Counted from the stretch's first letter, positions 1 to 33,245 are shown. The stretch: 64,000 nucleotides of DNA from an uncultured Planctomycetia bacterium (GCA_964431835.1 CAYSKO010000008.1:26622-90621), one strand, 5' to 3'. Numbers and translations: made by a program. Notes: a model not told the origin generated them from the sequence alone.

Positions 1-7
1 ACGCCAA

Positions 8-3000
8 ATGATCTCTTATCACGTGGAGAGGGGAATTCAGCCGCTCGCCGTCGTCGAGCCGCTCGCCGTGGACAACTACCTACGCGGGTTCGGCTATCGC
101 CTCGCCGACCTCGCGGCGACCCAAAAGATCGGCCTGTCGGGTGGCCGCATCGTTGTAGCTCCGGACGCCGCCGTGCCGCTCACCGAAGATGGGGACGTCG
201 AATACGACACCGCGGACATTCCTCCGCTCACCCCGCGCAACTTGAGCGCGTGGCTTCCGAAGAAGGACGCGTACGTGAAGGACGCAGCGCGGGCACAGGC
301 GATCATCGACGCCATCGCGCGCGCCGACGGAGGGGACGTCTCCCTCGTTGACTCCGGAGCGACCTGGGACACCTTCGAATTGAAATCGCAGCCCGATCTT
401 GTTTTCAAAATAACGAAACTTTCGCCCGGCTTGACCGATTCCCGTTTTTTCTTCGAGGCTCAAGCGGCTGAAATGGGACGTCTGGCCAAAGGAGAAAAAG
501 CACTCACCAAGCAAATTGGAGGATTCGACCTTCTCTCCATCCCGGGTTTCGCGCCGTTCGTTTACGCGGAAGGTTTTTCCAGCGAAGCCGACAGGCCGGT
601 GGGACTCCTTATCCAACAGAAAGGTTCTTACGCTGCGGACCGTGAACTCGACCGCGCACGTACCGCGGCCGAAAGCTCGGGCGTCCAGGGCGGCCCGCTG
701 CGGGCGTCCGACGTCAAATTGGTCGGCGGCCGCGCGGTGGTGGCCGACTTCGACCGCGTGATTTATTCCGGCGCACGTATGTCGGACGCGGCGCAGCGCG
801 TGGAGATTCGCACGTTCGCGGCCGGTTATCTGGAAGGCCGCCCGGACGCCGAGGTCATGCGGAAGCTCGTCGACGCGTACCTGGCTTTCGAGAATCCGCG
901 CAGGGACGCGATCTACAATATCAGCATTGCGTATTACGACGGGATCAATCGCATCCCGGCCGACGCGGAAACGAAAGCGCAGTTCGAGGCGCTCCTGGCG
1001 ATTCTCGAGACCGACGTGAAGCCGCGCGCCGAGGCGGTCAAATATAAGGAACGCCGAATCAACTTTATCGCCAATACGCTGGGGCCCCTTTTCACCGCCT
1101 TCGACGGGCGAGAAGCCACCGCTCCCGAGGCTGCTCCTCAGAAAGCTATTGAAACTCTCGATAAGGAGTTCCGTGCGGGCATCGCCGACTGGCTCACATC
1201 GAACGGCGCTCCGTTCGATGTCGACGTCGCCCGGTGGAACGCGGCCTCGGCGACGGCTGATCCTTCGCTCGCTCCCGAAATCCGCGAAGAGCTCGCCGAT
1301 CTCAAGCTTGCGAAAGACGTCCTGGCGGCCAAAACGGCGGAAGGCGATCCGCGGGAGACCTTCTCCGCTGCGCTTCGTTTCGCGCGGGTCGCTCAAGGCG
1401 CCTATCAGACACTCCTCGGAAAAGCGGGCCGGCGCGGACTTGTCGCGGACACCGCGCGTTACGGCGGCACCGGCGAACTCTTCGGGATTCTGCGGCTGGA
1501 TTTCGGCGGCGACGAAATCCGCCGTCTCGCCGTGCAGCATTCCGACGCGGCCGCTCCGGACGCGATGCGCGTCCTCATACTTTCGGAGATACTCGATACC
1601 CTCGAAACGCTCGACCCCCAAGCGATCGCCGACGACCTCGGTCTGACGGGGGGGCTGAACGTATCCGCATTCCTGAGTGACAAACGCGGCGCGGGAGACG
1701 CTTTATACCGGGCCTACACCGCCCTCGTGACTCTCGGGAAGGACGACGCCGGGCGACCGTTCACGTTCGGAGACATGTCTCCCGAAGCCAAAACCTTCGT
1801 CCGTCAGAGTTTCGGCCGCCATTTCCGCGCGGCGCTCGAGGAATCGGTTCTCGGCAAAAAAGGCGCCATCGGTCAGGAGGGTCTGGCAAGGATCGCGGTG
1901 ATCGACGTGCCGAGGCGTGCCCGTCTCGAAGCGGTCTCGGCCGGTGCGCGCATGGCGGACTCGATCGATTGGGTCGGCCCGTTCCCAGCGTCCGTAAAAC
2001 CCGAGAAACGCGACGCGGTCGCCGCGGCGCTCGTCGACATCGCCAACGGTGCCGACGTGACCGATTTCCGGTTCCTCGCGCACGCGCTGCGTGAGATCGG
2101 CCTCGATCTTCTTTCGGCCGACGCCGCCGCCATCGAGCCGGACGATATCTACGAAACCTTCCGAACCATCCTCGCACGCGCCGCCGCGGGCAAGCTGGGC
2201 GCCGGGACGATGTCGAACGCGCGCAACTACATCCATCATTTCGACGCGATCGCCCCCGCGCTCGCGCGCCTTGCGTATGAGCTTTGGACGGATACAGATC
2301 AGGGCGCCGTCGGGGGTCTTAAAGGCGGCTTGATCGGATCGATCCTCCGGGCGAAGCCCGACACGACGTTTTCGGACGTCGGAACCCTGCCCAAAATGAA
2401 CCAGCTCGATACGGGCAACTTGGATTCTCCGCTCCTGCCTTTCCGCGCGTTGAACGTGCTCGCCGCCGATTCGTCGGTGCAGACGATGTTCGCCGTTAAC
2501 GAAAGCTTCGAGCGGGCGCTTGTGGACGTGCTGACACGTCTCGCCGGTCTCGACGCGGAAAGGCTGACCGAAGCCACCTTTAGGGATCGCTTCGCCGAAG
2601 AAGCGGCCCGTCCGATCGCGGAGCTTGACGGACGCACGTTCAACACGATCTACGCGGAGACGCTCGTCGAACTGGACGAGCGGGCCCGCCGGATGCTCGA
2701 GCAACCCGTCAGTCTCGATTTCGCCTTTCCGTTCGAGGCCGACGCGCCGCTGGCCGCCAACATCGACCGGGTGATCAACGAGCGCTACGGGAATTTCGCG
2801 CAGACGAAGCTTCACAAGCGCTACATCATGAGCCAACTCGACGCACTCGGCGAGAGGGAAGTATCCGCACCGAAGACGGCCGAGCGTCCTTATGGACCCG
2901 CCGCGGACCTCGTGCTCGAATCGCTCGAGAAATACTGGAGGGAAATGGGCCGCCTGTATTCCCGAGAATTGCCGGGCTGGGGCGCGCTCCGCGAGATCCC

Positions 3001-6000
3001 GCTCCGGGACGCACTGCCCTTCATCATCCTTTCCGGGGAACTGCGGCCGAAGTCGTCCGACGGGATCGTCTCGCATGAGCTCGTCCGGATGTTCGGTCTG
3101 GAGCGGGAATCCGCCACGTTCGTCCGCTACGCGCGCGCGCGGGCGGCCGCGGGCGCCGAGCCGCCCGCGGATTTTCTATCCGGCCGCGCTCTCGCGGGCC
3201 TTGCGTCCGGAGCGCGCATGGCGATCACGTTCAAGGGAGTGGAAACCGGCGGCGTGCTCGATAAGGAAGGCCGGGCCATCTTCGAGAGCGTGCTCGCACG
3301 CGCGGTCTACCTGACCGGCTGGGACAATTTCGAGCTCTTCTCACGGACGCTCGACCGGATGTTCGACGCCGAGGGCCGGCCGCTCCTCAGTCTCGACGAG
3401 ATCAAGAACGCTTCCGACGACTTCCTCATCGAAAAACTGCGCGAGGGAATCGCCGGCCAAATCGACGATTATGGAGCCTACGCGCGTTCGAGCCAGCTTT
3501 TTCAGTTCGAAGGGGACTCGAATCGCTTCATTAATCCGTACGTCGGATCCGAAGCGCTCGCGATCCTGCGCGCTTTGACGTCCCTCGCGTCTTATTCGGA
3601 TTCGGCCGGCCGCTCGCCGAGAACGCCGGCGGAGATCGCGGCGGTGCTGGAAGCGCTGCGCATCGGCAGGGTCGAGGAAGGACTCAAGACGATCAAGGAC
3701 GACGCCTCGTACCGCGCCCGCGTGCGCGTCCTCGATCCGACCCTCGTCTACGCAGGGTTCATCAAAGCCGGCGGCTTCGGAGACGTCGTGAAAGTATACA
3801 AGAACGGGAAACCCCACGCGCTCAAGCTTCCTGGCGGAGCGTACATGACGGGACTGTACACCGAGGCCGATCGCCGGAACGCCGCGACGGGCATCCAAGA
3901 GACGGTCGCGTTCGCCGAGACCATCATGAAGGGGGGCGAGAAGACGGCGGAGCTTCGCAAGTTCCTGCCGGTTCTCGTCGAAGCGTTCGGAGCCGACTGG
4001 AAAGAGGGCGATACGAAGGACCCAGCGATCCTCATGGAATTCATCGACTTCGACGCGATTCCCGAAGCCGAAAAATGGATTTTTGGGGGCGCGACGCCAC
4101 AGGAGCGGCTCGATCGCCTCCGGCAGACGGCCGAAAAGTTCAGGGAGCTCCAGAGTCTGATGATCGCGAGCACGGGACAGTACATCTTCGACGACCGAAT
4201 CAGCAACTTCAACGTGGAAGTCGAAAAAGACCCCTCGGGACGTGAAGCGATCAAGCGGCTCATCCTGCTCGATTTCGGTCTCACGCGACCCTATGTCGCG
4301 CCCGAGCAGGCTACCGATGACAACCTCGCGACCACCCTCCCGATCAATCCTTTTTCCAAAACCAGCCTGATGGCGCGCGCCAGCCGCGTGCGGCGGGCCG
4401 TGCCAGAAGGGGTGTTGAGCGCAGACCAGGCGGCAGAAAAATTGAGCCAGACGGACCCTGTGCTTCTGGAATCGCTCGGCGATTTCGAGCTTTTCCCCCA
4501 GAACGAACGCGCGACGCTTGTCAAAAACGCCGATTGGACGCCGGTGATCGCGGCCGAGTGGCTCAGCCGGGAGATCGAGCTCCTGCAGTTTTTCCCGACC
4601 GAGCGCTTCGAGCACGACCTCGGGGAGATGATCTCCTCCAAGGCGGAGAATGCGATCAAATACCTTCTTACTCTGCGCCCCGCGAAGGACGGAAACGGAA
4701 AGAACAAGCGGGCTTCGGTCACGCTGCGAGAACTGGATCTGCGGATCGATGCCGTGGACGGCAAACAGGTGATCTACGCTAAGGGGCTCGAGATCGGAAG
4801 CTTGTCCGACACCGCTTACGTCCCGAACGTGGCGAACCTCGTCGCGGCGCTGGGGTCGCTCGACAACAAGCCTGCTGGAGCGCGGATGGCGGACGAGGAT
4901 TTTTCAGGAAAGGTGAAAAACGCTTTTACGTCCGCGCGACAGGCGCTCTCTTCGGAGGGGCATCTCGATGCGCAGGCGGCGGAAATTCTCGATTTCCTCG
5001 AGAGCCGGTACGCGGGCGAAGATTTCAAGGCCGCACGAGCGGCTCAGGCACGGCTGTCCGATTTGGTTTCTGCGGAGCAAGGGACGGGGCGCCGCGACGC
5101 TCTGAAAGCAGCACTCGGCTTGGTCGCGCCTATACTGGGACTCTTCGCTACGGACATCAGCGCCCGTATTGCTCGGCGCAAGAAGGAATATGCGGCCGCG
5201 CTCGACGTGAGCGCTCTACCGGCCGCGGATTTCTCGGCCTACAGTTTCACGGGAAAGACGGAAGAAAGCGCCTATCGGTTCTTCGTAGCGACCCCCGTAT
5301 CCGGAGGTCCCATCGACATTCTTAAGATCGGGGAGGTGCGCCGCGAGGCGATCTTTCTCGACCGGGTGCGCCGAGAGTTTCCCTCCGTGGCGCCGTTCAT
5401 CCCCGTATTCAAGGGCTATGGAGTGCTCACCGACGTCGACGCGATGCGGCTCGGGGATCCCACTATGAAAGGTCGCCCGTACATGATTACCAGCCGCGCG
5501 GAGGGAAAACGATTCGAGCTGACCTTATTCGAATTGAGCAAAGGAAGCATCGGGGAGGACGAGGCGCTCGGCGCTCATCTGGCCGCCGCGCGGGCGATCG
5601 CCCGGCTCCATGCCGCCGGAATTGCCCATCGAGACCTGAAGGACAGGGAAGTTTTTGTAAATCCGGTCACGGGCAGGGCGACGATCGTGGATTTCGGCAT
5701 CTCGGCGATCTTAGGGGACGCGACCCGCGGCGAAGAGGACCTGGTGAAGGGGGAGCTGCATCAGATAGGAACCAGCGTGAGCGGGCGAGGAAAAGGTTCG
5801 TTGAACCGGGACGTGCGCGCGCTCGTGAGCTTGCTGGAACAGATCGTCTTCGCCGCGAACCAGTCTGCCGGTCGAGACGGGCGCGAGTCGCTTATCCGGA
5901 GACTAGCTCTCGAAGAATTCGGTCTGCAGGCCAAAAAAGCGTTGGTGTTAGCGCAGGAAAACGACGCCGCGCCGGCATACGGCATCGGCGAATTACTGGC

Positions 6001-9000
6001 CGACCTGGAAAAACTTTATGCGTCGTTTAAGGCCGCGGAAATCGCGCGGGCCGCGCGAATGGCCGATCCGAACGGGACGCCGGTAACCCCCGATAGTCTG
6101 CGCGCGTCCGTCGGAGCGCTGCGGACAGCTCCGGACCCCGCGGCCTGGAAAACTGCCGCCGAGGATTTGGCCGCGCGCGTGACTGCCGCGACGCCCGAGG
6201 CGCTGGACTTGAAGTTGTACGAGCGCTCGCCCGCGGTCGACGAAGCGCTGTCCGCCCTGCTCGACGCCTACCGCGACGCGCGGTCAGGCCGCGAGCTCCG
6301 GAATACGATCCGCGCGGCGCTGTACTCCGCGCTCGGACGAAACCATACGCTTGCGCCGCTTTACATCGAAGCCCTCGATCGCCTTTACGTGGATAAGGAA
6401 GACGCCGACGACGAGCAGACAAAGGCCAGGCTCGAAGAGGTTTACGCGCGTCTCGGCGTGGTCGTAGAAGGTCACAGCGAGATCTACGCCAGGATACAAG
6501 AATTTGAGACGGTCTATAGCGCGACCGCCGTCGCCGTGACCGCGCTTAAGGGAGTCGAATGGGAGAAGGCCCGCGATCTCTACGGTCTTCCCGGCGAACC
6601 CGGAGACTATGAGCTCCTCGGGCTTAGGGCCCGTTATTATCTGGGCTTGGCCAATAACTCGCTCAATCGCAGAGCGATTCTCAATAAGCCGGGTGATTCC
6701 GAAAAAGCTCGGGTCATGACGCAGCTCGTCCAGGAGTTCCGGGCGAAGGTCCGCGACTCGGAAAAAGAACATGAAAGGGAGCTTCCTGAGGAGGGTGAGG
6801 CCCCCGTAGAGCTTACCCTGCGATTCATCGGCGATATCCAGGCGATCGCCGCGGTCTATTCGCGGCTCGTCGAGCTGTTGCTCCGGGCGGACGCCGAAAA
6901 GGCCGAAGAGCTGCCCCGACTGCAGAGTGGGCTCTATTCCGGCGACGCCGAAGCGGCGCGGCATCTTCTCTGGCTGTCCAAATTCGGCAGTGCGCCGGCG
7001 ATCGCCGCGCTTCGGTTTGCGGGGGCTCCGACGAAAACCGCTGAAGTGGAGTGGGCCCAGACGAACCGTGAGCTCGACGAGCGTCTCGATATCTCCGGTG
7101 CCCGTGTAGCCGATCCGAAGGAGCTTCTGGCGGTCGCGGCGGATAAATCGAAGCCGATCGATGAGCGAAAACACGCGCTGACAACCCTCGCCGAGGTCGG
7201 GCAAGCTGCCGCCGTCGTCGTCACCCAAATAGAAGCGATCCGGATCGATCCCACGGAAGACAACGCACTCAGAGGGCTTGCGTACCTGGCGATCCGTTCG
7301 TACGAAGTGGCCGTGGAAAAAACGGTGCCGGAAGTTCCCGGCCCGGCCGCGCCGGTGCGTCTCGACGATCCTGACCGGCGGAACGCGGCACTGGCTCGCT
7401 GGGAAGGAAAATCGATCAGCCGCGTGAATTTCCTCAATGATCCACGAAACACGGCCGTCGTTTACCGCATGGCCAACCGCGCGGGAAAAGAGCGGAACCT
7501 CCATTTGGGCTGGGCGTTCGAAGTGGACGACGGTGTGCACAAGCCAATCACCGAACCTGAATTGCGCAACCCCGCCGCGATCGAGGCCGTGAACGCGGTC
7601 TTCGTCGAAGCCTTCCGGGAGACCGTGCAAGCCTACGATTGGCAAGACGTGCGCTGGAGCCTCGTCGTCGAAGGCAGTAGCGGATTCGGACTCGAGGCGG
7701 GCGCTTCTCTGGGAATCCGGGCGAGCTCCGTCAACGAGGTGTTGCCCCTTCTCCAGGCGCTCCAGTCTGGCGACGAAGCGAGGATCCGCCGAAATGCGGC
7801 GTTCTTCACGGCGTCGCTCGCGCACGAGTTCGCGCACAACCACCGGGACGAAGCGGCGGGTTTCTCGATGGCCCGCGAACGTGAGGTCGTCTCCCAGATG
7901 GCACAATTTTTATTCAACCCCGCCGAGAACGCGATTTTCAACGAATCGGTCGCGGCGGATCTGGATAAACTCCGGGTTCCCGTCGCGGGGCGGTCTCCGA
8001 AAGAAGCCTTCAATTACGAGTACTACGAAGCGATGCGGATCGCACTTGTTCTCGTGGCGGATCTCGCGCTTTCGTCCCGGGGCGAGTTCCCTGAAATAGC
8101 GGCGGAGGCGGACCGGTTGAAAGAAGGGGACGAGCTCGACGCCCTAAAAGTGTTCGCCGCGTCTTTCGAAAAGCTTCCCCGCGACCGGGCGGCCGCCATT
8201 TTCCGATCTGCCATGGATGCCTTCCTTCCCCTCAATCAGAAAGCGCTACGGGAACGCTATCCTGAGTCGCGCGACCGGGTTTTCGCGTCATCGGGGGCGC
8301 GGCTGGCGGCAGCGGATTCCGCATCGTCCGCTCAGGCCGACGCGCCGGCGGATAGACCCGCCCCCGCATCGGCGATCGAAGCGCTCGCCGCCGGGGAAAC
8401 AGGCGCCGCGCGCGCGGGCGGCCGCGGGCGTGAAACCACGTTCGCCGCCGCCTCTCCGGCCGAGCGTTTCCTCGAGAAGGCGGGTATCACGCTTCCAGCG
8501 AACCCTCCGAACGCCGAGCGTGTCCGTGAAAGCGCCGCCGCCGAGTCTGGCTTCCTTTCGCGTATTCGATGGGCAAGCGGTATGCTCGTTCCTTACGCGT
8601 TCGCGGAACAGGCCGCGGTCGTACGTCAAAACGGAGCGAGGCTGGCCGTTTCCGCACCGGACGGCACGCCGATCGCCGACGTCGAAATGCAATCAGCGCG
8701 CCCGGCGGCGGTTCCCACTCTTGCCGCCCAACCCAAATCCATCCCCGACTACCTCAGGGAATTCGACGGCGCCACAACCCGCGTCGAAGAAGCCATGCTT
8801 CTCGCCTTCGGAGCCGAAGGCTTGGAGACCTTGACGGCCGAGCCCCGCTCGATCGCCATCGACATCGGCGTCCTTCCGGCGAAGCGTCCCGAGTACTTAG
8901 AGAACCTCTTCGTCCAGCTTCTTGCGATGCGCGCGCGTCCCGTGGCCGCCAACGTCTCGTTCCGCCTGACGGGCCCCGGCGTCCAGGAAGCGCTCGCTTC

Positions 9001-9457
9001 GTCCGACTTGGCACGCCAGCTCGTACGGAAGGGAATTATCGACCAGACGCCCGATCCCAAGCTTAAGACCGCCGAGATCGCAGGTATAAACCGCATCGAA
9101 TCCCTCTCAGGTGAGACCTACCTGCCTTTCCGGGCGGTCGAGATCACGGACAAGGAAGCGGGAGTACCGAAGTGGCAGGCGATGATCCTTCTTGCCGTCA
9201 TGGCCTCCGAGATCGGGAAGAAGACCGAAGACCCCGTTCTCCTCAGGCAGTTCTACGAGGCTTACCGCGACGTCTCGGGCCTTTCGGTCGAGAAGCTAGA
9301 GCCTGCGAAGCTCCTAGAAGCTTTAAAGGCGTTCCTCACGGGTACGGCATCCAAATCCTTGGCCGAGGACTACGCGATGCGCGCCGCCCCCATCGACATC
9401 AACCGTATCATCCAGCTCTTCAGCAACATCAAGCGCATTGTGGCGTCGGCCGCGTAA
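8..9457 (+). CDS. Giant multidomain protein A, 5'-truncated by the window edge (>=3149 aa). Contains a eukaryotic-like protein kinase domain, a second kinase-like catalytic core, an HExxH metallopeptidase-like motif and the shared C-terminal module.
   Basis: The + frame is open from the window edge to TAA at 9455-9457, with strong GC3 codon bias throughout. ePK glycine loop plus AxK, GFIKAGGFGDVVKVY...HALKL (nt ~3755-3826), followed by LLDFGLTRPYVAPEQ (4268-4310). HRDLK at 5627-5641 and DFG at 5690-5698. HEFAH at 7823-7837. Five G/A-A-R-M-A/S motifs. The last ~240 aa are identical to the C-terminus of protein B. Confidence 0.8.
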   Translation: MISYHVERGIQPLAVVEPLAVDNYLRGFGYRLADLAATQKIGLSGGRIVVAPDAAVPLTEDGDVEYDTADIPPLTPRNLSAWLPKKDAYVKDAARAQAIIDAIARADGGDVSLVDSGATWDTFELKSQPDLVFKITKLSPGLTDSRFFFEAQAAEMGRLAKGEKALTKQIGGFDLLSIPGFAPFVYAEGFSSEADRPVGLLIQQKGSYAADRELDRARTAAESSGVQGGPLRASDVKLVGGRAVVADFDRVIYSGARMSDAAQRVEIRTFAAGYLEGRPDAEVMRKLVDAYLAFENPRRDAIYNISIAYYDGINRIPADAETKAQFEALLAILETDVKPRAEAVKYKERRINFIANTLGPLFTAFDGREATAPEAAPQKAIETLDKEFRAGIADWLTSNGAPFDVDVARWNAASATADPSLAPEIREELADLKLAKDVLAAKTAEGDPRETFSAALRFARVAQGAYQTLLGKAGRRGLVADTARYGGTGELFGILRLDFGGDEIRRLAVQHSDAAAPDAMRVLILSEILDTLETLDPQAIADDLGLTGGLNVSAFLSDKRGAGDALYRAYTALVTLGKDDAGRPFTFGDMSPEAKTFVRQSFGRHFRAALEESVLGKKGAIGQEGLARIAVIDVPRRARLEAVSAGARMADSIDWVGPFPASVKPEKRDAVAAALVDIANGADVTDFRFLAHALREIGLDLLSADAAAIEPDDIYETFRTILARAAAGKLGAGTMSNARNYIHHFDAIAPALARLAYELWTDTDQGAVGGLKGGLIGSILRAKPDTTFSDVGTLPKMNQLDTGNLDSPLLPFRALNVLAADSSVQTMFAVNESFERALVDVLTRLAGLDAERLTEATFRDRFAEEAARPIAELDGRTFNTIYAETLVELDERARRMLEQPVSLDFAFPFEADAPLAANIDRVINERYGNFAQTKLHKRYIMSQLDALGEREVSAPKTAERPYGPAADLVLESLEKYWREMGRLYSRELPGWGALREIPLRDALPFIILSGELRPKSSDGIVSHELVRMFGLERESATFVRYARARAAAGAEPPADFLSGRALAGLASGARMAITFKGVETGGVLDKEGRAIFESVLARAVYLTGWDNFELFSRTLDRMFDAEGRPLLSLDEIKNASDDFLIEKLREGIAGQIDDYGAYARSSQLFQFEGDSNRFINPYVGSEALAILRALTSLASYSDSAGRSPRTPAEIAAVLEALRIGRVEEGLKTIKDDASYRARVRVLDPTLVYAGFIKAGGFGDVVKVYKNGKPHALKLPGGAYMTGLYTEADRRNAATGIQETVAFAETIMKGGEKTAELRKFLPVLVEAFGADWKEGDTKDPAILMEFIDFDAIPEAEKWIFGGATPQERLDRLRQTAEKFRELQSLMIASTGQYIFDDRISNFNVEVEKDPSGREAIKRLILLDFGLTRPYVAPEQATDDNLATTLPINPFSKTSLMARASRVRRAVPEGVLSADQAAEKLSQTDPVLLESLGDFELFPQNERATLVKNADWTPVIAAEWLSREIELLQFFPTERFEHDLGEMISSKAENAIKYLLTLRPAKDGNGKNKRASVTLRELDLRIDAVDGKQVIYAKGLEIGSLSDTAYVPNVANLVAALGSLDNKPAGARMADEDFSGKVKNAFTSARQALSSEGHLDAQAAEILDFLESRYAGEDFKAARAAQARLSDLVSAEQGTGRRDALKAALGLVAPILGLFATDISARIARRKKEYAAALDVSALPAADFSAYSFTGKTEESAYRFFVATPVSGGPIDILKIGEVRREAIFLDRVRREFPSVAPFIPVFKGYGVLTDVDAMRLGDPTMKGRPYMITSRAEGKRFELTLFELSKGSIGEDEALGAHLAAARAIARLHAAGIAHRDLKDREVFVNPVTGRATIVDFGISAILGDATRGEEDLVKGELHQIGTSVSGRGKGSLNRDVRALVSLLEQIVFAANQSAGRDGRESLIRRLALEEFGLQAKKALVLAQENDAAPAYGIGELLADLEKLYASFKAAEIARAARMADPNGTPVTPDSLRASVGALRTAPDPAAWKTAAEDLAARVTAATPEALDLKLYERSPAVDEALSALLDAYRDARSGRELRNTIRAALYSALGRNHTLAPLYIEALDRLYVDKEDADDEQTKARLEEVYARLGVVVEGHSEIYARIQEFETVYSATAVAVTALKGVEWEKARDLYGLPGEPGDYELLGLRARYYLGLANNSLNRRAILNKPGDSEKARVMTQLVQEFRAKVRDSEKEHERELPEEGEAPVELTLRFIGDIQAIAAVYSRLVELLLRADAEKAEELPRLQSGLYSGDAEAARHLLWLSKFGSAPAIAALRFAGAPTKTAEVEWAQTNRELDERLDISGARVADPKELLAVAADKSKPIDERKHALTTLAEVGQAAAVVVTQIEAIRIDPTEDNALRGLAYLAIRSYEVAVEKTVPEVPGPAAPVRLDDPDRRNAALARWEGKSISRVNFLNDPRNTAVVYRMANRAGKERNLHLGWAFEVDDGVHKPITEPELRNPAAIEAVNAVFVEAFRETVQAYDWQDVRWSLVVEGSSGFGLEAGASLGIRASSVNEVLPLLQALQSGDEARIRRNAAFFTASLAHEFAHNHRDEAAGFSMAREREVVSQMAQFLFNPAENAIFNESVAADLDKLRVPVAGRSPKEAFNYEYYEAMRIALVLVADLALSSRGEFPEIAAEADRLKEGDELDALKVFAASFEKLPRDRAAAIFRSAMDAFLPLNQKALRERYPESRDRVFASSGARLAAADSASSAQADAPADRPAPASAIEALAAGETGAARAGGRGRETTFAAASPAERFLEKAGITLPANPPNAERVRESAAAESGFLSRIRWASGMLVPYAFAEQAAVVRQNGARLAVSAPDGTPIADVEMQSARPAAVPTLAAQPKSIPDYLREFDGATTRVEEAMLLAFGAEGLETLTAEPRSIAIDIGVLPAKRPEYLENLFVQLLAMRARPVAANVSFRLTGPGVQEALASSDLARQLVRKGIIDQTPDPKLKTAEIAGINRIESLSGETYLPFRAVEITDKEAGVPKWQAMILLAVMASEIGKKTEDPVLLRQFYEAYRDVSGLSVEKLEPAKLLEALKAFLTGTASKSLAEDYAMRAAPIDINRIIQLFSNIKRIVASAA
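8734..9453 (+). repeat. Copy 1 of a 720-bp perfect direct repeat; encodes the shared C-terminal ~240-aa module of giant protein A.
   Basis: Base-by-base comparison with 28764-29483 (offset exactly 20030 nt) shows no mismatches. Identity begins at aaatccatccccgactacctc and ends one codon before the stop (GCG TAA here, GCT TGA in copy 2). Confidence 0.9.
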
Positions 9458-9507
9458 CCGATTTTCATAACCCTATCATTTTAAATGGGATACGGAACTC
9501 TTTTCCT

Positions 9508-9536
9508 TTGATCCACTCGCCCTCCTAGTGTATACT
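9508..9536 (+). promoter_or_regulatory. Sigma70-like promoter for giant gene B: TTGATC-N17-TATACT.
   Basis: TTGATC at 9508-9513, a 17-nt spacer, then TATACT at 9531-9536. It sits in a ~125-nt AT-rich island (9458-9582) within an otherwise ~65% GC region. A second TATAAT lies at 9543-9548. Confidence 0.5.
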
Positions 9537-9582
9537 TTTACTTATAATCGCTTAAAATAATGTTATCAGAGTTAATAAAATT

Positions 9583-21500: not shown

Positions 21501-24500
21501 CGCGTCCATCGACGAGGAACTGGGCAGCGCCTCGGTCAAACAGTCGTACGTCATGACGCTTAAGAACGGCGACCGCCGCGCGATCAAGTACGTTCGCCCG
21601 CTCGCGGAGTTCGAGATGGTCGAAAATCTGGCGATCATGCGCAACGCCATCCAGCGGCTCAGGTTCCGGATTCCCGCCCTGAAAGAGCGTGTATCCGACT
21701 CGCTGCTCGACGAGATCGAGAAGTCTGTCCAACGCGAGCTTGACATCCGTCAGGAAGTCTTGAGCCAGCGCGAGCTCGGCCGTTTCTCGAGAGGGGAGCG
21801 TCACGGCGGGTGGACGCTCAAAGTCCCCCGCGTCGACGGCCGTTTCGTCGGTTCGCGGTACTTCGCGGACGAATACGTGGTCGGCGAAGCTCCGAAAGCC
21901 GCGTTCATCGCCGCCGCCGGCGAAAAGACGGCCGCCGCGTTCGCCGGCCTTACGCTCAAGACGGTGGTCAAGCAGGCGCTCCTCTTTGGCAAATACCACG
22001 GCGACCTGAACCGCGGCAATCTCAAGTTTGACGTTCCGGGCACCACCGCGCACCTCATCGACTTCGGCAACACGGCGACGCTTTCCAGGGCGAATCAGGA
22101 CGCCTTCGTGCTGCTTATGGACGCTCTGGCGGCTTCCCACGCACCGGACGCGCTGGCCGCGCTGAGGCGTCTGGCGCCCGCGGGATTGTCTCCCGCGCTC
22201 GAGGCGAAAATCGGCGCTGTGGCGGTGCTGGCCGACGTTCCGGCGGGCGCGAAGATCCAACGCGTGAAAGCCGTGATTGAAGGAGAGGGCGGAAAACTCG
22301 AACCGCAGATCGACTATTTCCTTAAAGTTCTCGAGACGCTTTCTTACCTCACGGGAAACGTCTCCAAAGACCAGATCGCCGAAATCTTCGCGGCGGCGGT
22401 CGTTCGCCGCCAGCTTTCCGTCCGGAACCTGTTCACCCCGACGACCTGGAAGTTCATCTCGCGCCGCCTTTTCGGTTCGTCCGCTCCGGTTCCCGCTCCG
22501 GGCGCGCCCCTGGCTGCCGAGGGTACGGCGGAAATTCCGTCCGTGGCGGCGATTCCGGAGAGCCCGAAGGCACCGGCCTCGAGCGAGCGCGGCGATTCAC
22601 CGGTCGGGGCGCGCATGGCCGAAGCGAAATCCGCCGCCCTCACTCCCGAGGGAGAAGCGCTCAAGCTTCTTGCGCTGTACCGCATCGGCGAGGGGTCTGG
22701 CGACTCCAAGGACGCGAACCGGTTCGCTTTTTCACCCGGAGGATCCCGCCTCCTTCACCGGGATAGGGGCCGCGTCTCGGTGATCGATCCCGCGACCGGA
22801 AAAACGGTTTCGATCGAGCTTCCGGGCGGCTACGAGTGGGCTTCGTTCCGCGGCGAGAACGTGCTCTACGTGTCCTTTCAGGACAAAACCGAACGCGTGT
22901 ATGCGCTTCGGGGGAACGAGATCGTGCAGACCATCGAGGATGAAGACGAACCCGTTTTATCGGCGGGAGGCCTGTTGAGCGTCGGCGGGGGCCGGTCTCT
23001 CTCGTTCTCCGACGACGGAAGTCTCATCTTGGTGGTGTCGGACACCGGTTACTCCGTCCGTCTATCTTCTACGGGGGAGACGCTGGCGATTCCCGACGCG
23101 CGAAAACCCAAGAAGGTGGAGCTGTCGGGAAATTACGTCGTCGTGAGCTTCGACGGCGGCCGCCATGCGATTTACCTCGTCGCGGAAAACAAGTTGTCGG
23201 TCGCTCTCACCGACGATGTCCTCGGAGTCCCTTCCATTGAAAGAGGCTACGCGTACGCCGTTCCTGCCGACGGAAGGGCCCGTGTCTGGGAGTTGGTGAC
23301 CGGCCGCCGTGCACTCGATTTGGAAGGAAGAATCAATCAGGTTAAAATTCTCGACGGGCGGTGGGCGGTCACTGTCGGAGCCAACGACGATACGGCGAAG
23401 CCGGGCTCGCTCGAGATGCAGCTTTACGACCTTCGGACGGGCGAGAATTTCGGAAGGAAGATCGCGCCGGAGGCCCGCGATTTCGCAGTCGACGGGAACG
23501 GCAGGTACGTCGACGTCTTCCTCGAAAACGAAAGGCGCCTGTTCGACTCCGAGACGGGAGCGGATCTAAGCCCCGTCGTTCGCCCCGGATACGACGAACT
23601 CTCTATCCGTGGGAACCGCGCGCTCGTTAAATACGGGCCGGCCGCCCGGATGAACGCGTTCGACGGACGGTACGAGACTTTGTACCGCCTGATCGATCTC
23701 GAAACGGGCAAGGAAATAACGGTCGAAGGGCTCGAAGCGGCGCAGCGGGCAACTCTCGCGCCCGACGGCTCTGCGCTCATTTTTAGAAATGCCGCGTCGG
23801 ACTCGATTCTTGCCGACGTGTCGGGAAAGACGGTCGACCGTTTCGGCACGGCGGGCCGCAAGCTTTACTCGGCGGGTTTCCTGCCGTCGGGCGTCGTCGA
23901 AACGAAAGACCAGAACAACAGGTCCCATCTTTTCGATCTGAAGACGGGCAATTCGCTCGATTCTCTGACGGGGCCGCAGGCGACGCAGCCCGTCGTGTCG
24001 TCCGACGGAAAGCGCGTCGTGGTCATGGATTCCAGCCGGTATTTCCGCCTGGTGGACATCGAGACGATGCGCCGGAATCCCGTTCTCGCTCCGCACGCGG
24101 CCAGGTGGGGCCGGAGCGCCCACTTCGCGCTCGAAATCCTCGCACAGCTGAAACGCGAAGGCCGCTTGGACACCGCCGCCGATCTCGAACGCCTCTTGCC
24201 GCGCGTGACCGAAGCGATCGAGCGTTACGAGGCGGCGGTCACGGATTACAACCGCGACCGCGTCGTGGGTCTTTTCCTGGACGGCAACAGCGTGCTCAGT
24301 GCACCGGTCCTCGAACGCGTGACGGCGAGCGGCGGCGACTCACTCGAATTTTTCCTTTTCTGCATCGAGCTCATGGAATCCGATCGCCGCCTAGCTTTCC
24401 AGATCTTAGACGGCGTCTTCACGGCGGCCAAGAGCGAGGGGCTCGCTTTCGAGGAGAATTCCGCAGTCACCGCGAAGCTCCCCAACGACGAGCGCGAGCG

Positions 24501-32124: not shown

Positions 32125-32222
32125 ACGGAGAGCGAGTCGCTAAAATACCCCTTTTCTCCTCCTGGGCTTCATGTTATAAATTTACGTAAGGAAGTCGTTT
32201 TTTTAAAAAAATGCGAGGGATC

Positions 32223-33245
32223 ATGCCGATAGAGACTCAGCCAAAGAAGAATGCGCGCGCCGCCGTGACCGTGAACCATCACGCGGTGAAAGAGTTCATG
32301 ACGCATAACTACCGGCATTTCAACTCCGCCGTCGTTATCGACGCGTCCCAGGCGTACGTGGATCATCTCAAGGCCGGCAACAAGATGATGGTCACGCTGG
32401 CCGGCGCGATGAGCACGGCCGAGCTCGGCATCTCGCTTGCTCAGATGATCCGCGAGGACAAGGTGCACGCGATCACGTCCACCGGCGCGAACCTCGAAGA
32501 AGACATCTTCAATCTCGTCGCGCACGACCACTACAAGCGCGTCCCGCACTACCGCAACCTCACCGCCGCCGAGGAAGTCGAGCTCCGGAACGGCGGCTGG
32601 AACCGCGTCACCGACACCTGTATCCCCGAAGAAGAGGCTATGCGCCGCATCGAGCGCCAGGTCCTCAAGTTCTGGCAGAAAGCGGATAAGGAAAACCAGC
32701 GCTATTTCCCGTACGAATACATGTACCAGCTCCTGCGCAGCGGCACGATCAACGAGTCGTTCCAGATCGATCCCAAGGATTCGTGGGTCATGGCCGCCTG
32801 CGAGAAGAATATCCCGATCTGGACGCCGGGCTGGGAAGATTCGACTCTCGGAAACATCTTCGTCGCCAACGTCCAGAAGAAGGAAGTCTCGAAATTCTCC
32901 GTCGTGAAGCACGGCGTCGAGCTCATGGACGACCTCATCCACTGGTACAAGAAAAACACATCGTCCAAGTCGGTTGGTTTCTTCCAGATCGGCGGCGGCA
33001 TCGCCGGCGATTTCCCGATCTGCGTCGTGCCGCTCATCGAGCAGGACCTGAAGGAAAAGGTCCGTCTCTGGGGTTACTTCTGCCAGATCTCCGATTCGAC
33101 GACCTCCTACGGGTCGTACAGCGGCGCGGTCCCGAACGAGAAGATCACTTGGGGCAAGCTCGACGGCGACACGCCGCGTTTCGTGATCGAGTCCGACGCC
33201 TCGATCGTGGCGCCGCTCGTCTTCTCTTACGTCCTCGCTTCGTAA
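32223..33245 (+). CDS. Deoxyhypusine synthase-like protein (DHS family).
   Basis: ~341 aa. Motifs HNYRHFNS, LAGAMSTAELG and ITSTGANLEEDI resemble the DHS/homospermidine-synthase fold. ATG 32223 has a GAGGGA SD 4 nt upstream; the alternative ATG 32211 lacks a well-spaced SD. Confidence 0.5.
   Translation: MPIETQPKKNARAAVTVNHHAVKEFMTHNYRHFNSAVVIDASQAYVDHLKAGNKMMVTLAGAMSTAELGISLAQMIREDKVHAITSTGANLEEDIFNLVAHDHYKRVPHYRNLTAAEEVELRNGGWNRVTDTCIPEEEAMRRIERQVLKFWQKADKENQRYFPYEYMYQLLRSGTINESFQIDPKDSWVMAACEKNIPIWTPGWEDSTLGNIFVANVQKKEVSKFSVVKHGVELMDDLIHWYKKNTSSKSVGFFQIGGGIAGDFPICVVPLIEQDLKEKVRLWGYFCQISDSTTSYGSYSGAVPNEKITWGKLDGDTPRFVIESDASIVAPLVFSYVLAS

What the first reader, a model, noticed from the sequence alone, without database searches (positions are those of the whole stretch)
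3740..22080. Arsenal of at least five distinct kinase-like modules, including a bona fide eukaryotic-type protein kinase
Protein A has a Gly-loop GFIKAGGFGDVVKVY plus HALKL at 3755-3826 and DFGLTRPYVAPEQ at 4268-4310, which reads as ePK subdomains I-II and VII-VIII. It has a second core with HRDLK at 5627-5641 and DFG at 5690-5698. Protein B has an APH/Kdo-like kinase (HGDL 13681-13692, DFG 13777-13785) and a PI3/4K- or HipA-like DAKMKHLLLVND...FVGIDSE at 15310-15405. It also has a UbiB/ABC1-like kinase (KFGQ 21367-21430, HGDLNRGN 21997-22020, DFG 22060-22068). Multiple unrelated kinase classes in one secreted polypeptide is highly unusual.
Basis: partly seen in the sequence, partly recalled or inferred. 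Interest (0 to 1): 0.7.

Follow-up and report, generated by a model that had tools for sequence, protein, structure and literature searches.

The report
Multi-kinase giant modular proteins, Omnitrophota
Two neighbouring giant genes of an uncultured Omnitrophota-type bacterium encode signal-peptide-bearing proteins built from dozens of different enzyme modules, five of which in this window are kinase-like domains of different families. The modules are separated by a recurring GAR(M/L)A peptide that may mark where the giant proteins are cut into separate enzymes.

Summary
All ten motifs are in frame at the stated coordinates. They lie in two adjacent giant ORFs, not one. A (8..9457) is the last 3149 aa of a 6037-aa protein. 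B (9583..29487) is 6634 aa.

All five kinase-like modules get independent support, but several labels change:
- nt 3755-4310 is not a bona fide ePK. It is a minimal atypical kinase-like core, and a 40%-identical homologue just passes Pfam ABC1.
- The HRDLK/DFG module is the real Hanks-type kinase (Pfam Pkinase 33.8 bits).
- HGDL/DFG is Bud32/PRPK-like (profile vs PDB, E 9.5e-9).
- ABC1/UbiB is clear (74 bits).

The organism groups with Omnitrophota, a phylum known for giant mosaic proteins.

New points:
- Both proteins share a signal peptide plus a ~560-aa N-terminal domain, found in at least 254 metagenome relatives.
- Modules are delimited by a peptide motif GAR[ML]A: 17 seen vs 0.35 expected here, and 147 vs 0.7 across the family, with synonymous codon variation.

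Best reading: exported polyprotein-like effector arrays, processed at these junctions. Cleavage and delivery are inferred, not shown.

The parts
8..9457 (+). Giant ORF A. This is the C-terminal 3149 aa of a 6037-aa protein; its first 2888 aa lie upstream of the window.
   Evidence: Its product is identical to the end of P0002. P0002 and P0001 lie on the same 94,443-nt NCBI contig.
9583..29487 (+). Giant ORF B, 6634 aa and complete. It follows an AT-rich intergenic region with promoter-like sites.
   Evidence: Identical to P0001.
3695..4366 (+). Kinase-like module 1 (A aa ~1230-1453). It is a minimal atypical PKL core nearest ABC1, with Gly-loop KAGGFGDV, HALK Lys, catalytic loop FDDRISN and DFG. 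It is not a canonical ePK.
   Evidence: G26/F28/D30/V31, K44, D166, N171 and D193 are invariant in three divergent homologues. The P0005 homologue passes Pfam ABC1 at 23.9 bits (cut-off 22.9) and hits PK_Tyr_Ser-Thr at E 0.028. The window copy has no profile hit of its own. The AF2 model failed.
5255..5887 (+). Kinase-like module 2 (A aa ~1750-1960): Hanks-type Ser/Thr protein-kinase domain with HRDLK, DFG and an alphaF Asp. The catalytic-loop Asn is replaced by Glu (HRDLKDRE). The profile-matched core is nt 5471-5722.
   Evidence: Pfam Pkinase 33.8 bits, above the gathering score of 31.7. PDB phmmer: StkP 2.2e-6, PknA 2.6e-5. NCBIfam PknB-type 4e-6.
13198..13950 (+). Kinase-like module 3 (B aa 1206-1456): Bud32/PRPK-like small atypical kinase, flanked on both sides by the junction motif. 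HGDL is followed by a 10-12 aa insert, and an invariant His sits in place of the catalytic-loop Asn.
   Evidence: NCBIfam arch_bud32 E 7.2e-5. Family profile vs PDB: Bud32-type kinase 9x4g E 9.5e-9, TP53RK E 1.7e-5. K67, E89, H162, D164, H178 and D194 are invariant in 5 homologues.
14773..15780 (+). Kinase-like module 4 (B aa 1731-2066): PI3K/PI4K/PIKK-fold domain. It has beta3 Lys ILLKW (14986-15000), catalytic loop GVRDAKMKH (from 15310) and metal-binding GIDSE.
21367..22131 (+). Kinase-like module 5 (B aa ~3929-4183): ABC1/UbiB-family atypical kinase. It has KFGQ, Ala-rich loop GSASVKQ, Lys in RAIKY, HGDLNRGN and DFG.
   Evidence: Pfam ABC1 71.6-74.2 bits, gathering score 22.9. TIGR01982 scores 76.7 bits, far below its equivalog cut-off of 487.
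9583..11250 (+). Signal-peptide-like N-terminus (MTPSGKRILRPIALLLALIFAFEEAAKA|AP) followed by a conserved ~560-aa N-terminal family domain. Invariant motifs are IHIQDAH (9796-9816) and GGYH (10978-10992).
   Evidence: 46% identical to the N-terminus of full-length A. 254 metagenome relatives. Invariant residues listed. 7 of 34 members give weak Pfam hits to the ChaN/Tiki superfamily, PF04187. It contains the only strongly hydrophobic segment in B.
8450..9457 (+). C-terminal ~335-aa domain of A. It is shared with B, and its last 240 aa (720 nt) are identical. It ends ...IVASAA-COOH.
   Evidence: Tail motif shared with other family members.
28492..29487 (+). C-terminal ~335-aa domain of B. It is a paralogue of A's, and 28764-29483 is 100% identical in DNA to 8734-9453.
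17722..18010 (+). Peptidase M48 (Ste24/HtpX-type zinc protease) module in B, with HEAGH at 17923-17937.
   Evidence: Pfam Peptidase_M48 39.2 bits, gathering score 20.3.
16180..16221 (+). JAMM-type motif HNHPSGHALPSLGD (HxHx7Sx2D). Tentative JAB/MPN+ metalloprotease module in B.
   Evidence: Motif read directly from the sequence. Only weak RadC-JAB hits at E 0.1. PDB phmmer found nothing.
7823..7837 (+). HEFAH (HExxH) motif. Possible zincin protease module in A.
   Evidence: Sequence only. No profile hit.
770..784 (+). junction motif GARMS
1943..1957 (+). junction motif GARMA
3209..3223 (+). junction motif GARMA
4877..4891 (+). junction motif GARMA, between kinase modules 1 and 2
6050..6064 (+). 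junction motif variant AARMA
7097..7111 (+). junction motif GARVA
8294..8308 (+). junction motif GARLA
8633..8647 (+). junction motif GARLA, before the C-terminal domain of A
11533..11547 (+). junction motif variant AARMS, at the end of the N-terminal domain of B
13198..13212 (+). junction motif GARLS, at the start of the Bud32-like module
   Evidence: The same position is GARLA in homologue P0004.
13951..13965 (+). junction motif GARMA, at the end of the Bud32-like module
15781..15795 (+). junction motif GARVA, at the end of the PI3/4K-like module. The preceding residues have pLDDT below 50 in the model.
16819..16833 (+). junction motif GARMA
17605..17619 (+). junction motif GARIA
22606..22620 (+). 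junction motif GARMA, after the ABC1-containing module
26053..26067 (+). junction motif GARMS
27067..27081 (+). junction motif GARMA, before a putative SAM-methyltransferase module
27673..27687 (+). junction motif GARIA
27808..27822 (+). junction motif GARLT
28705..28719 (+). junction motif GARLA, before the C-terminal domain of B

Best explanation
The region encodes two tandem, architecturally paralogous giant proteins (6037 and 6634 aa) of an Omnitrophota-type bacterium.

Shown:
- Each protein has a signal-peptide-like N-terminus, a conserved ~560-aa family-defining N-terminal domain, a long string of mutually unrelated modules, and a shared C-terminal domain.
- Within the window the modules include five different protein-kinase-like domains: an ABC1-like minimal core, a Hanks-type Ser/Thr kinase, a Bud32-like kinase, a PI3K/PI4K-fold kinase and an ABC1/UbiB kinase.
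- They sit alongside an M48 protease, possible JAB and HExxH proteases, a beta-propeller and a methyltransferase-like module.
- Modules are separated by a short peptide, small-G-A-R-(M/L)-A, lying in low-hydrophobicity linkers. The motif is selected at the peptide level and conserved across a large metagenomic family.
- Homologous modules occur in other proteins with different neighbours, or as stand-alone ~300-aa proteins.

Inferred:
- The proteins are exported through Sec.
- They are then processed at the GAR(M/L)A junctions into individual enzymes, like a polyprotein or a MARTX-type multi-effector toxin.
- The ATP-dependent kinases act inside, or on the surface of, a partner or prey cell, phosphorylating its proteins (or lipids, for the PI3/4K-fold module).

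The processing protease is unknown. Candidates in cis are the Tiki/ChaN-like N-terminal domain and the M48, JAB and HExxH modules.
For: ORFs and motifs.

Kinase identities:
- Pfam Pkinase 33.8 bits and ABC1 74.2 bits.
- PDB StkP and PknA hits.
- Bud32: NCBIfam 7e-5, and family profile vs PDB 9.5e-9.
- Module 1: catalytic residues invariant in three homologues, one of which passes the Pfam ABC1 threshold.
- Catalytic Lys and Asp residues are conserved in every family alignment.

Architecture:
- P0002 is full-length A, with the same signal peptide plus N-domain as B.
- The C-terminal domain is shared.
- B has a single N-terminal hydrophobic segment.

Junction motif:
- 17 GAR[MLIV][AS] in A+B against 0.35 expected, with a maximum of 4 in 2000 shuffles. 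Only 1 GAR[MLIV] occurs in 9057 aa of housekeeping proteins in the window.
- The codons vary synonymously.
- 147 GAR[ML]A against 0.7 expected in 147,527 aa of 80 metagenome relatives, with a median spacing of 282 aa.
- It is also the commonest 4-mer in P0002 and P0005, and it flanks the Bud32-like module in P0004, where the next module is different.
- It is seen in an independent Omnitrophota MAG, L013, between methyltransferase-like, propeller-like and GNAT-like modules.
- Stand-alone homologues of modules exist (P0014, 310 aa; P0018, 302 aa).

Taxon and context:
- AccA is 73-83% identical to Omnitrophota MAGs.
- The literature describes giant mosaic ORFs, a predatory or parasitic lifestyle, suspected proteolysis and unknown cleavage points.
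Against: - There is no direct evidence of cleavage, export or delivery. The signal peptide was judged by eye and by hydropathy only.
- No conserved protease or secretion-system gene lies next to family loci. The window's own neighbours are housekeeping genes.
- Only 23 of 38 long family members carry two or more motifs. Some lineages have variants (GTRL) or none.
- Several kinase modules depart from canonical catalytic loops. Asn is replaced by Glu in the Hanks-type module and by His in the Bud32-like and PI3/4K-like modules, and DFG is replaced by DSE. They could be pseudokinases or could catalyse other chemistry.
- Module 1 of the window has no profile hit of its own, and its structure prediction failed.
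- The N-domain's link to Tiki/ChaN is weak (best E 0.004, 7 of 34 members), and a profile of it finds nothing in PDB.
- The 720-nt perfect repeat between A and B leaves a small risk of local misassembly.
Confidence: 0.5

Rival explanations
1. The giant proteins stay intact as multi-enzyme scaffolds of the producer itself, either cytoplasmic or anchored by the N-terminal hydrophobic segment. The kinases regulate the producer's own physiology. GAR(M/L)A is a structural linker or capping motif, or a docking motif, and not a cleavage site.
For: A 2026 preprint reads many Omnitrophota giants as inner-membrane-anchored proteins with cytoplasmic regulatory or metabolic modules. FHA domains, which read phosphothreonine, occur in the same protein A, which suggests an internal signalling circuit. 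Kinases, a methyltransferase and a JAB domain need ATP, SAM or cytoplasmic substrates. No secretion or injection genes are nearby.
Against: The N-terminus fits the positive-inside rule and has an A-x-A site conserved across the family (...AAP), which predicts export of the bulk of the protein. Modules shuffle exactly at the motif and also exist as stand-alone proteins. A five-residue motif conserved across GC contents of 0.44 to 0.66 is more specific than a passive linker needs.
Confidence: 0.3
2. Most of the kinase-like modules are pseudokinases, or they use the kinase fold for other chemistry such as AMPylation, glutamylation or ATPase activity (as in Bud32). The 'kinase arsenal' would then be an arsenal of ATP-using enzymes, not phosphotransferases.
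For: The catalytic-loop Asn is replaced in three modules (Glu, His, His), and DFG becomes DSE or DWE in the PI3/4K-fold family. Module 1 lacks a C-lobe in its homologue. Bud32 acts as an ATPase in KEOPS, and SelO and SidJ show alternative chemistries on this fold (general knowledge, not tested here).
Against: The beta3 Lys, the catalytic Asp and the metal-binding Asp are invariant in all family alignments. The substitutions are themselves invariant, which indicates selection on an active site. The ABC1 module has the complete motif set.
Confidence: 0.25
3. The kinase motifs are chance matches in long, poorly conserved ORFs, or the ORFs are assembly or annotation artefacts.
For: Three of the five modules have no hit above Pfam thresholds when the window sequence is scanned alone. 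Three word-indexed homology searches returned nothing. A 720-nt exact repeat is present.
Against: Profile, fold and conservation evidence supports all five modules. The exhaustive search finds both proteins and divergent homologues. There are 254 metagenome relatives of the N-domain with long downstream ORFs.
Confidence: 0.03

Closest known systems
Giant mosaic ORFs of Omnitrophota: 'multi-enzyme' class giants, Archaeovorins, and the 39,678-aa protein of Ca. Velamenicoccus archaeovorus
   Same: Same phylum-level affiliation. Very long ORFs tiled with many unrelated enzyme domains, mostly unannotated and poorly conserved. They are suspected to serve a predatory or parasitic lifestyle and to be proteolytically processed.
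   Different: These two proteins are 6.0 and 6.6 kaa, below the 20-kb and 25-30-kaa definitions. B has one N-terminal hydrophobic segment instead of dozens of TM helices. No SecA-like, C39, dockerin or carbohydrate-active domains were found. The papers read here do not mention the payload of protein-kinase-like modules, the shared N-terminal domain, the C-terminal tail or the GAR(M/L)A junction motif. One paper states that cleavage points are unknown.
MARTX (multifunctional autoprocessing RTX) toxins of Vibrio
   Same: A single huge exported polypeptide carries an array of unrelated effector enzymes. These are released by proteolysis at short inter-domain linkers after delivery (general knowledge).
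   Different: No RTX repeats, no cysteine protease domain and no T1SS genes were detected. MARTX is cut after Leu by an inositol-hexakisphosphate-activated CPD. Here the candidate site is GAR(M/L)A and the protease is unknown.
Polyvalent proteins of phages and conjugative elements (Iyer et al. 2017, PMC5512222)
   Same: 2 to 15 or more unrelated enzymatic domains in one polypeptide. These often include zincin or papain-like peptidases proposed to autoprocess the protein into effectors used in inter-genomic conflict. There is a weak LPD15 hit in protein A (E 0.0023).
   Different: The context here is chromosomal housekeeping genes, not a mobile element. Entry is by a Sec-type signal peptide, not by co-delivery with DNA. 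The domain repertoire is different.
Kinase effectors of intracellular pathogens: Legionella LegK, MavQ and LepB; Shigella OspG; E. coli NleH; H. pylori CtkA; HipA toxins
   Same: They use Hanks-type, minimal and PI3/4K-fold kinases as secreted effectors or toxins. CtkA, HipA-like kinases and MavQ are among the structural neighbours of module 4.
   Different: Those are separate small proteins delivered by T3SS or T4SS, mostly into eukaryotic hosts. Here several kinase classes are concatenated in giant proteins of a bacterium thought to associate with prokaryotes. No substrate or host is known.
Viral polyproteins
   Same: One long translation product in which functional units are separated by a short, recurring, protease-specific junction peptide.
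   Different: These are bacterial chromosomal genes. No dedicated protease has been identified, and processing is unproven.

Membership tests
Hanks-type (eukaryotic-like) protein kinase, Pfam PF00069 - module 2 (nt ~5255-5887) | Profile match at or above the Pfam gathering score | tested here: met
   33.8 bits against 31.7 when the module is scanned alone. 30.3 bits within the whole protein.
Hanks-type (eukaryotic-like) protein kinase, Pfam PF00069 - module 2 (nt ~5255-5887) | HRD catalytic Asp, DFG Asp and alphaF Asp | tested here: met
   HRDLK, DFG and DVRALV align with StkP HRDLK, DFG and DIYAM.
Hanks-type (eukaryotic-like) protein kinase, Pfam PF00069 - module 2 (nt ~5255-5887) | Catalytic-loop Asn (HRDLKxxN) | tested here: not met
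   The sequence is HRDLKDRE, with Glu at the Asn position.
Hanks-type (eukaryotic-like) protein kinase, Pfam PF00069 - module 2 (nt ~5255-5887) | Gly-rich loop, beta3 Lys and alphaC Glu | tested here: inconclusive
   The profile alignments start at profile position 71. A candidate Lys lies in IDILKI (nt 5315-5329), but there is no clear GxGxxG.
   No Pfam, NCBIfam or PDB hit for the window sequence or for 2- and 3-sequence profiles. A homologue gives only E 0.028.
   APE is not conserved (VSEE and FEGD in homologues). In P0005 the module ends at a GARLA junction about 25 aa after DFG.
Protein-kinase-like superfamily (any branch) - module 1 | Ordered Gly-loop, beta3 Lys, catalytic D-x4-N and DFG with canonical spacing, conserved among homologues | tested here: met
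   G26, F28, D30, V31, K44, D166, N171, D193 and G195 are invariant in three sequences of 28-40% identity. The homologue passes Pfam ABC1 at 23.9 against 22.9 bits over the hinge-to-DFG region.
Protein-kinase-like superfamily (any branch) - module 1 | Bilobal kinase fold | tested here: inconclusive
   AF2 with a 2-sequence alignment gave pLDDT 37, which is unusable.
ABC1/UbiB atypical kinase, Pfam PF03109 - module 5 | Profile match at or above the gathering score, plus KxGQ, Ala-rich loop, Lys, HxDxxxGN and DFG | tested here: met
   74.2 bits against 22.9, covering profile positions 2-233 of 244. KFGQ, GSASVKQ, RAIKY, HGDLNRGN and DFG are read from the sequence.
UbiB (ubiquinone biosynthesis) orthologue, TIGR01982 | Equivalog score cut-off | tested here: not met
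   76.7 bits against a cut-off of 487.55.
Bud32/PRPK (KEOPS) kinase - module 3 | Sequence-profile similarity over the whole small kinase domain | tested here: met
   Family profile vs PDB: 9x4g E 9.5e-9, 8k20 E 1.2e-6, TP53RK E 1.7e-5. NCBIfam arch_bud32 E 7.2e-5 over profile positions 42-174 of 193.
Bud32/PRPK (KEOPS) kinase - module 3 | Equivalog membership, and partnership with Kae1 and KEOPS subunits | tested here: not met
   22.4 bits against a cut-off of 125. No Kae1 or KEOPS gene was identified in the window. The catalytic loop carries a 10-12 aa insert and His in place of Asn.
PI3K/PI4K/PIKK kinase, Pfam PF00454 - module 4 | PI3/4-kinase catalytic fold | tested here: met
PI3K/PI4K/PIKK kinase, Pfam PF00454 - module 4 | Sequence-profile match and the DRHxxN / DFG signatures | tested here: not met
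   No Pfam hit for any of 10 family members, and no PDB sequence hit. The motifs are D-x-x-M-K-H and I-D-[WS]-E.
Omnitrophota 'Archaeovorin' / giant-gene class (West-Roberts et al. 2023) | At least 25-30 kaa, many TM helices, SecA-like or C39-like domains, and cell-wall-degrading domains | tested here: not met
   Lengths are 6037 and 6634 aa. B has one strongly hydrophobic N-terminal segment. None of those domains appears in the Pfam scans.
MARTX toxin | RTX glycine-rich repeats, a cysteine protease domain and a T1SS operon | tested here: not met
   No such Pfam hits. The neighbours are housekeeping genes.
Polyvalent proteins of mobile elements | Encoded on a phage or conjugative element, with characteristic LPD domains | tested here: not met
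   Chromosomal context. There is only one sub-threshold LPD15 hit, at 18.2 bits against 27.
New family proposed here: signal peptide + IHIQDAH/GGYH N-domain giant proteins with GAR(M/L)A junctions | N-terminal domain with the invariant IHIQDAH...EGG...R...GGYH motifs | tested here: met
   Present in B and in full-length A. 254 metagenome relatives.
New family proposed here: signal peptide + IHIQDAH/GGYH N-domain giant proteins with GAR(M/L)A junctions | Proteolytic cleavage at the junction motif | not testable with these tools
   Needs proteomics or biochemistry.

The most novel reading that the evidence does not exclude
GAR(M/L)A is a protease-recognition code. A large, previously unrecognised family of Omnitrophota giant proteins would then be true bacterial polyproteins, defined by a signal peptide, a Tiki/ChaN-like N-terminal domain and an ...AxGxAA C-terminal tail. 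They would be exported and cut at these junctions into dozens of independent effectors. These include at least five different kinase types that reprogramme or kill the partner or prey cell. This would supply the missing cleavage points for Omnitrophota giant ORFs and reveal a chromosomal polyprotein strategy in bacteria.
Probability: 0.3. Interest if true: 0.85.

Novelty: new variant of a known kind. Interest (0 to 1): 0.65.

Why it matters
Omnitrophota are abundant, uncultured, ultra-small bacteria suspected of preying on or parasitising other microbes. Their giant genes are their most striking and least understood trait. Published work says the domains are mostly unannotated and that cleavage points, if any, are unknown.

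This locus contributes three things:
- It shows that one family of these giants carries a diverse set of protein-kinase-like enzymes, including a PI3K/PI4K-fold domain that sequence methods cannot see. That points to phosphorylation-based manipulation of a target cell.
- It defines the family by a conserved N-terminal domain, which makes its members easy to retrieve.
- It provides a short, statistically overwhelming junction motif. The motif divides the giants into domain-sized units for structure prediction, and it gives proteomics a precise hypothesis to test.

Tried and rejected
1. Three word-indexed homology searches returned nothing: whole protein A, the shared C-terminal domain, and the module-1 alignment. 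The exhaustive search later showed that homologues exist but are too divergent or too rare for that index.
2. A genome-collection scan with the C-terminal domain found nothing. jackhmmer of that domain against the fetched family also found nothing. BLASTP against the C-terminus of the L013 giant found nothing.
3. An exact look-up of the MnmE protein, meant to find the source contig, failed. The source was instead inferred from P0001 and P0002.
4. I considered that GAR-M/L/V/I-A reflects a DNA element, namely a Shine-Dalgarno sequence plus alternative start codons or a recombination site. I rejected this because the Gly, Ala and Arg codons vary synonymously at every site.
5. Module 1 gave nothing by several routes. 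PDB phmmer and 2- and 3-sequence profiles found no kinase. hhalign against the Bud32-like family and against module 2 aligned only the DFG strand, with probability below 7%. AlphaFold with 2 sequences failed.
6. The PI3/4K-like family gave no Pfam or PDB sequence hits. Only the fold search resolved it.
7. A profile of the N-domain against PDB sequences found nothing relevant.
8. Clustering the neighbours of 80 family loci, to look for a conserved protease or secretion partner, found only Nuo genes, a heptose-epimerase-like gene and an HD-GYP gene in subsets.
9. PDB phmmer on the putative JAB module found no JAB hit.
10. I considered signal peptidase I (-3/-1 rule) and C39 double-glycine cleavage for the junction. 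I set both aside because there is no preceding hydrophobic region and no conserved hydrophobic P4 or P7 positions in the logo.

Full report
**Observation.** The window carries two very long + strand ORFs, 8..9457 and 9583..29487. ORF A has no in-frame stop upstream within the window. Its product is exactly the last 3149 residues of a 6037-aa database protein, P0002, and ORF B is identical to the 6634-aa P0001. Both are singletons from one 94,443-nt NCBI contig. The 'one polypeptide' is therefore two adjacent giant proteins, and A is cut by the window edge.

**Organism and context.** Downstream genes are ordinary chromosomal housekeeping genes of a diderm bacterium: aconitase, deoxyhypusine synthase, TrpE, PurH, MnmE, AccA, MlaD and OmpA/BamE-type proteins. 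AccA is 73-83% identical to MAGs labelled Omnitrophota, or to MAGs with evidently automatic labels. Omnitrophota are known for giant, poorly annotated, mosaic ORFs and a suspected predatory or parasitic lifestyle. One preprint states that cleavage points in those giants are unknown.

**Module 5 (ABC1/UbiB).** This one is unambiguous. It scores Pfam ABC1 72-74 bits over almost the whole profile, and KFGQ, the Ala-rich loop, the Lys, HGDLNRGN and DFG are all present. It is not a UbiB orthologue, scoring 76.7 bits against a cut-off of 487.

**Module 2 (HRDLK/DFG).** This is the real Hanks-type domain. It scores Pfam Pkinase 33.8 bits, above the gathering score of 31.7, when the module is scanned alone. 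In PDB it matches StkP at 2e-6 and PknA at 3e-5, with alignment through the alphaF Asp. Its catalytic-loop Asn is Glu, and its N-lobe is not covered by the profile alignments.

**Module 3 (HGDL/DFG).** It has only weak single-sequence hits (Pfam APH E 0.39; NCBIfam Bud32 E 7e-5). The exhaustive search supplied four homologues. The five-sequence profile hits Bud32-type kinases and TP53RK in PDB at E 9.5e-9 to 2e-5. Lys, alphaC Glu, HGD and DFG are invariant. An invariant His after a 10-12 aa insert replaces the Asn.

**Module 1 (the claimed 'bona fide ePK').** This is the weakest case. The window sequence has no hit in Pfam, NCBIfam or PDB. Small profiles and hhalign were uninformative, and the AlphaFold model failed. 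However, homologues in P0005 (40% identity) and in metagenome locus L098 (28%) keep the Gly-loop, the Lys, D-x4-N and D[FY]G with canonical spacing. The P0005 copy just passes Pfam ABC1 (23.9 against 22.9 bits, hinge to DFG) and touches PK_Tyr_Ser-Thr over the N-lobe (E 0.028). 'APE' is not conserved, and the P0005 module ends about 25 residues after DFG. I read it as a minimal atypical kinase-like core, not a canonical ePK.

**Relations among the modules.** No paralogy links the five modules. A sixth kinase-like signature and two FHA domains lie in the part of A outside the window.

**Shared architecture.** A (full length) and B share three features:
- A signal-peptide-like N-terminus with an A-x-A|AP site.
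- A ~560-aa N-terminal domain, 46% identical between them.
- A ~335-aa C-terminal domain whose last 720 nt are 100% identical.

B has no other strongly hydrophobic segment.

**The N-domain defines a family.** A metagenome scan found 254 relatives. The 80 fetched loci have GC contents of 0.33-0.66, and most continue into ORFs that run off the contig after 2000-4000 aa. The invariant residues are IHIQDAH, EGG, an Arg and GGYH. Seven of 34 members give weak hits to the ChaN/Tiki superfamily. This is a lead, not a demonstration, because a PDB sequence-profile search found nothing.

**The junction motif in the window.** Both proteins are punctuated by G-A-R-[MLIV]-[AS]. There are 17 copies in 9543 non-redundant residues against 0.35 expected (maximum 4 in 2000 shuffles). 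Only one GAR[MLIV] occurs in 9057 aa of the window's housekeeping proteins. The codons vary synonymously at every site, so the selection is on the peptide.

**The junction motif across the family.**
- GARM and GARL are the commonest 4-mers in P0002 and P0005.
- In the 80 family ORFs, GAR[ML]A occurs 147 times against 0.7 expected, with a median spacing of 282 aa. The 15 residues upstream are less hydrophobic and richer in Pro, Ser, Thr and Gly than the background. 23 of 38 ORFs of 1500 aa or more carry two or more copies.
- One lineage uses GTRL instead.

**The motif coincides with homology breakpoints.** The Bud32-like module is bounded by it in B, P0004 and P0005, with different neighbours in each. 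The module-1 homologue in P0005 ends at it. An unrelated Omnitrophota MAG (L013) shows it between methyltransferase-like, propeller-like, GNAT-like and C-terminal modules. Modules also exist as stand-alone ~300-aa proteins. In the model of module 4, the residues just before the next junction have pLDDT below 50.

**Shown and inferred.** The following are shown: two giant modular proteins, five kinase-like domains of different families with conserved active-site residues, an M48 protease module, a family-defining N-domain, and a conserved peptide junction motif at module boundaries. The following are inferred: Sec export, proteolytic release of modules at the junctions, and action of the ATP-dependent modules in or on another cell.

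**Arguments for and against the inferred model.** In favour:
- The signal peptide is conserved across the family.
- The arrangement is polyprotein-like, and stand-alone homologues of modules exist.
- Kinases have no role outside a cytoplasm.
- The phylum is inferred to have a predatory or parasitic lifestyle.

Against:
- There is no direct evidence of cleavage or delivery.
- No partner protease or secretion system was found nearby.
- Part of the family lacks the motif.
- Several catalytic loops are non-canonical, so pseudokinase or alternative chemistry is possible.

The main rival is that the proteins remain intact as scaffolds in the producer.

**Comparison with known systems.** In kind this belongs with Omnitrophota giant mosaic proteins. 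It fails the specific features of Archaeovorins (size, many TM helices, SecA-like and C39-like domains). It works most like MARTX toxins, polyvalent proteins (PMC5512222) or viral polyproteins, but it lacks their defining domains or contexts. The papers read here describe neither the kinase-like payload nor the N-domain family nor the junction motif.

**Verdict.** The feature is a new variant of a known kind. The junction motif is the most valuable by-product.

Noticed in passing
window 770-28719 (21 sites listed under parts); also P0002, P0005, P0004, L013, L081-L151: A peptide motif G-A-R-(M/L)-A recurs at module boundaries of the giant proteins. It is 17 vs 0.35 expected here, and 147 vs 0.7 expected in 80 metagenome relatives. 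Codons vary synonymously, and the median spacing is 282 aa. It is a candidate processing or junction signal, and it is not mentioned in the Omnitrophota giant-gene papers read.
   Followed up: yes
window 9583-11250; P0002 aa 1-560; L081-L160: A signal peptide plus a conserved ~560-aa N-terminal domain (invariant IHIQDAH, EGG, R, GGYH) defines a family with at least 254 metagenome relatives. 7 of 34 members give weak Pfam hits to the ChaN/Tiki superfamily (PF04187). In more distant lineages it also occurs as a stand-alone ~500-600-aa protein (e.g. L153-L156, L160).
   Followed up: partly
window 9430-9457 and 29460-29487; ORF ends in L083, L086, L090, L093, L102, L103, L105, L107, L122; L013: Complete family members end in a similar tail, ...A-[VI]-G-[SAG]-[AS]-A-COOH (IVASAA, AVGGAA, AIGAAA, AIGSAA, AVGAAA, AVHAAA, ATGASA). 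This holds even though their C-terminal domains are otherwise not detectably similar. It may be a C-terminal sorting or recognition signal.
   Followed up: partly
window 8734-9453 and 28764-29483: A 720-nt stretch is 100% identical between the 3' ends of the two giant genes, while the ~100 codons upstream have diverged. This indicates gene conversion, or a repeat that could confuse assembly.
   Followed up: partly
window 1-8 (left edge): ORF A is truncated by the window. The full protein (P0002) is 6037 aa. Its upstream part holds two Pfam FHA domains (E 3.6e-18), a further HExxH motif and a sixth kinase-like signature (LVLKV...NDMRLDNFMF...FPDAGG, aa ~645-905).
   Followed up: partly
window 16180-16221: A perfect JAMM motif, HNHPSGHALPSLGD (HxHx7Sx2D), suggests a JAB/MPN+ metalloprotease or deubiquitinase-like module. 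Only weak RadC-JAB profile hits (E 0.1) support it.
   Followed up: partly
window 17722-18010 and 7823-7837: B contains an M48 (Ste24/HtpX-type) zinc protease module (39 bits), and A contains an HEFAH zincin-like motif. These are possible in-cis processing proteases.
   Followed up: partly
window 22606-26052 and 27067-27672: Other payload modules are a beta-propeller-like region (PQQ_2, E 6e-5, below threshold) and a probable class I SAM-methyltransferase motif (SIGAGDLRD; weak KsgA hit).
   Followed up: no
L098 (metagenome contig ORJL010668517.1), ORF aa 700-3648: A related giant uses GTRL[ASPV] instead of GAR(M/L)A at five sites. It carries a homologue of kinase-like module 1 with DYG instead of DFG.
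   Followed up: partly
L001 and P0004 (NCBI 'Candidatus Eisenbacteria' SMAG MAG); many 'uncultured Planctomycetia' MAGs: The closest relatives of the window's AccA and of the Bud32-like module are deposited under phylum labels that disagree with the surrounding Omnitrophota hits. The taxonomic labels of these MAGs look unreliable.
   Followed up: no
L094, L096, L097, L101, L104, L117, L132: In one sub-lineage the giant gene sits next to a NADH dehydrogenase (nuoA/B/CD/H/I/J-like) operon. This looks like synteny only, with no obvious functional link.
   Followed up: no
window 32211-33245: A deoxyhypusine synthase homologue lies in a bacterial housekeeping neighbourhood.
   Followed up: no
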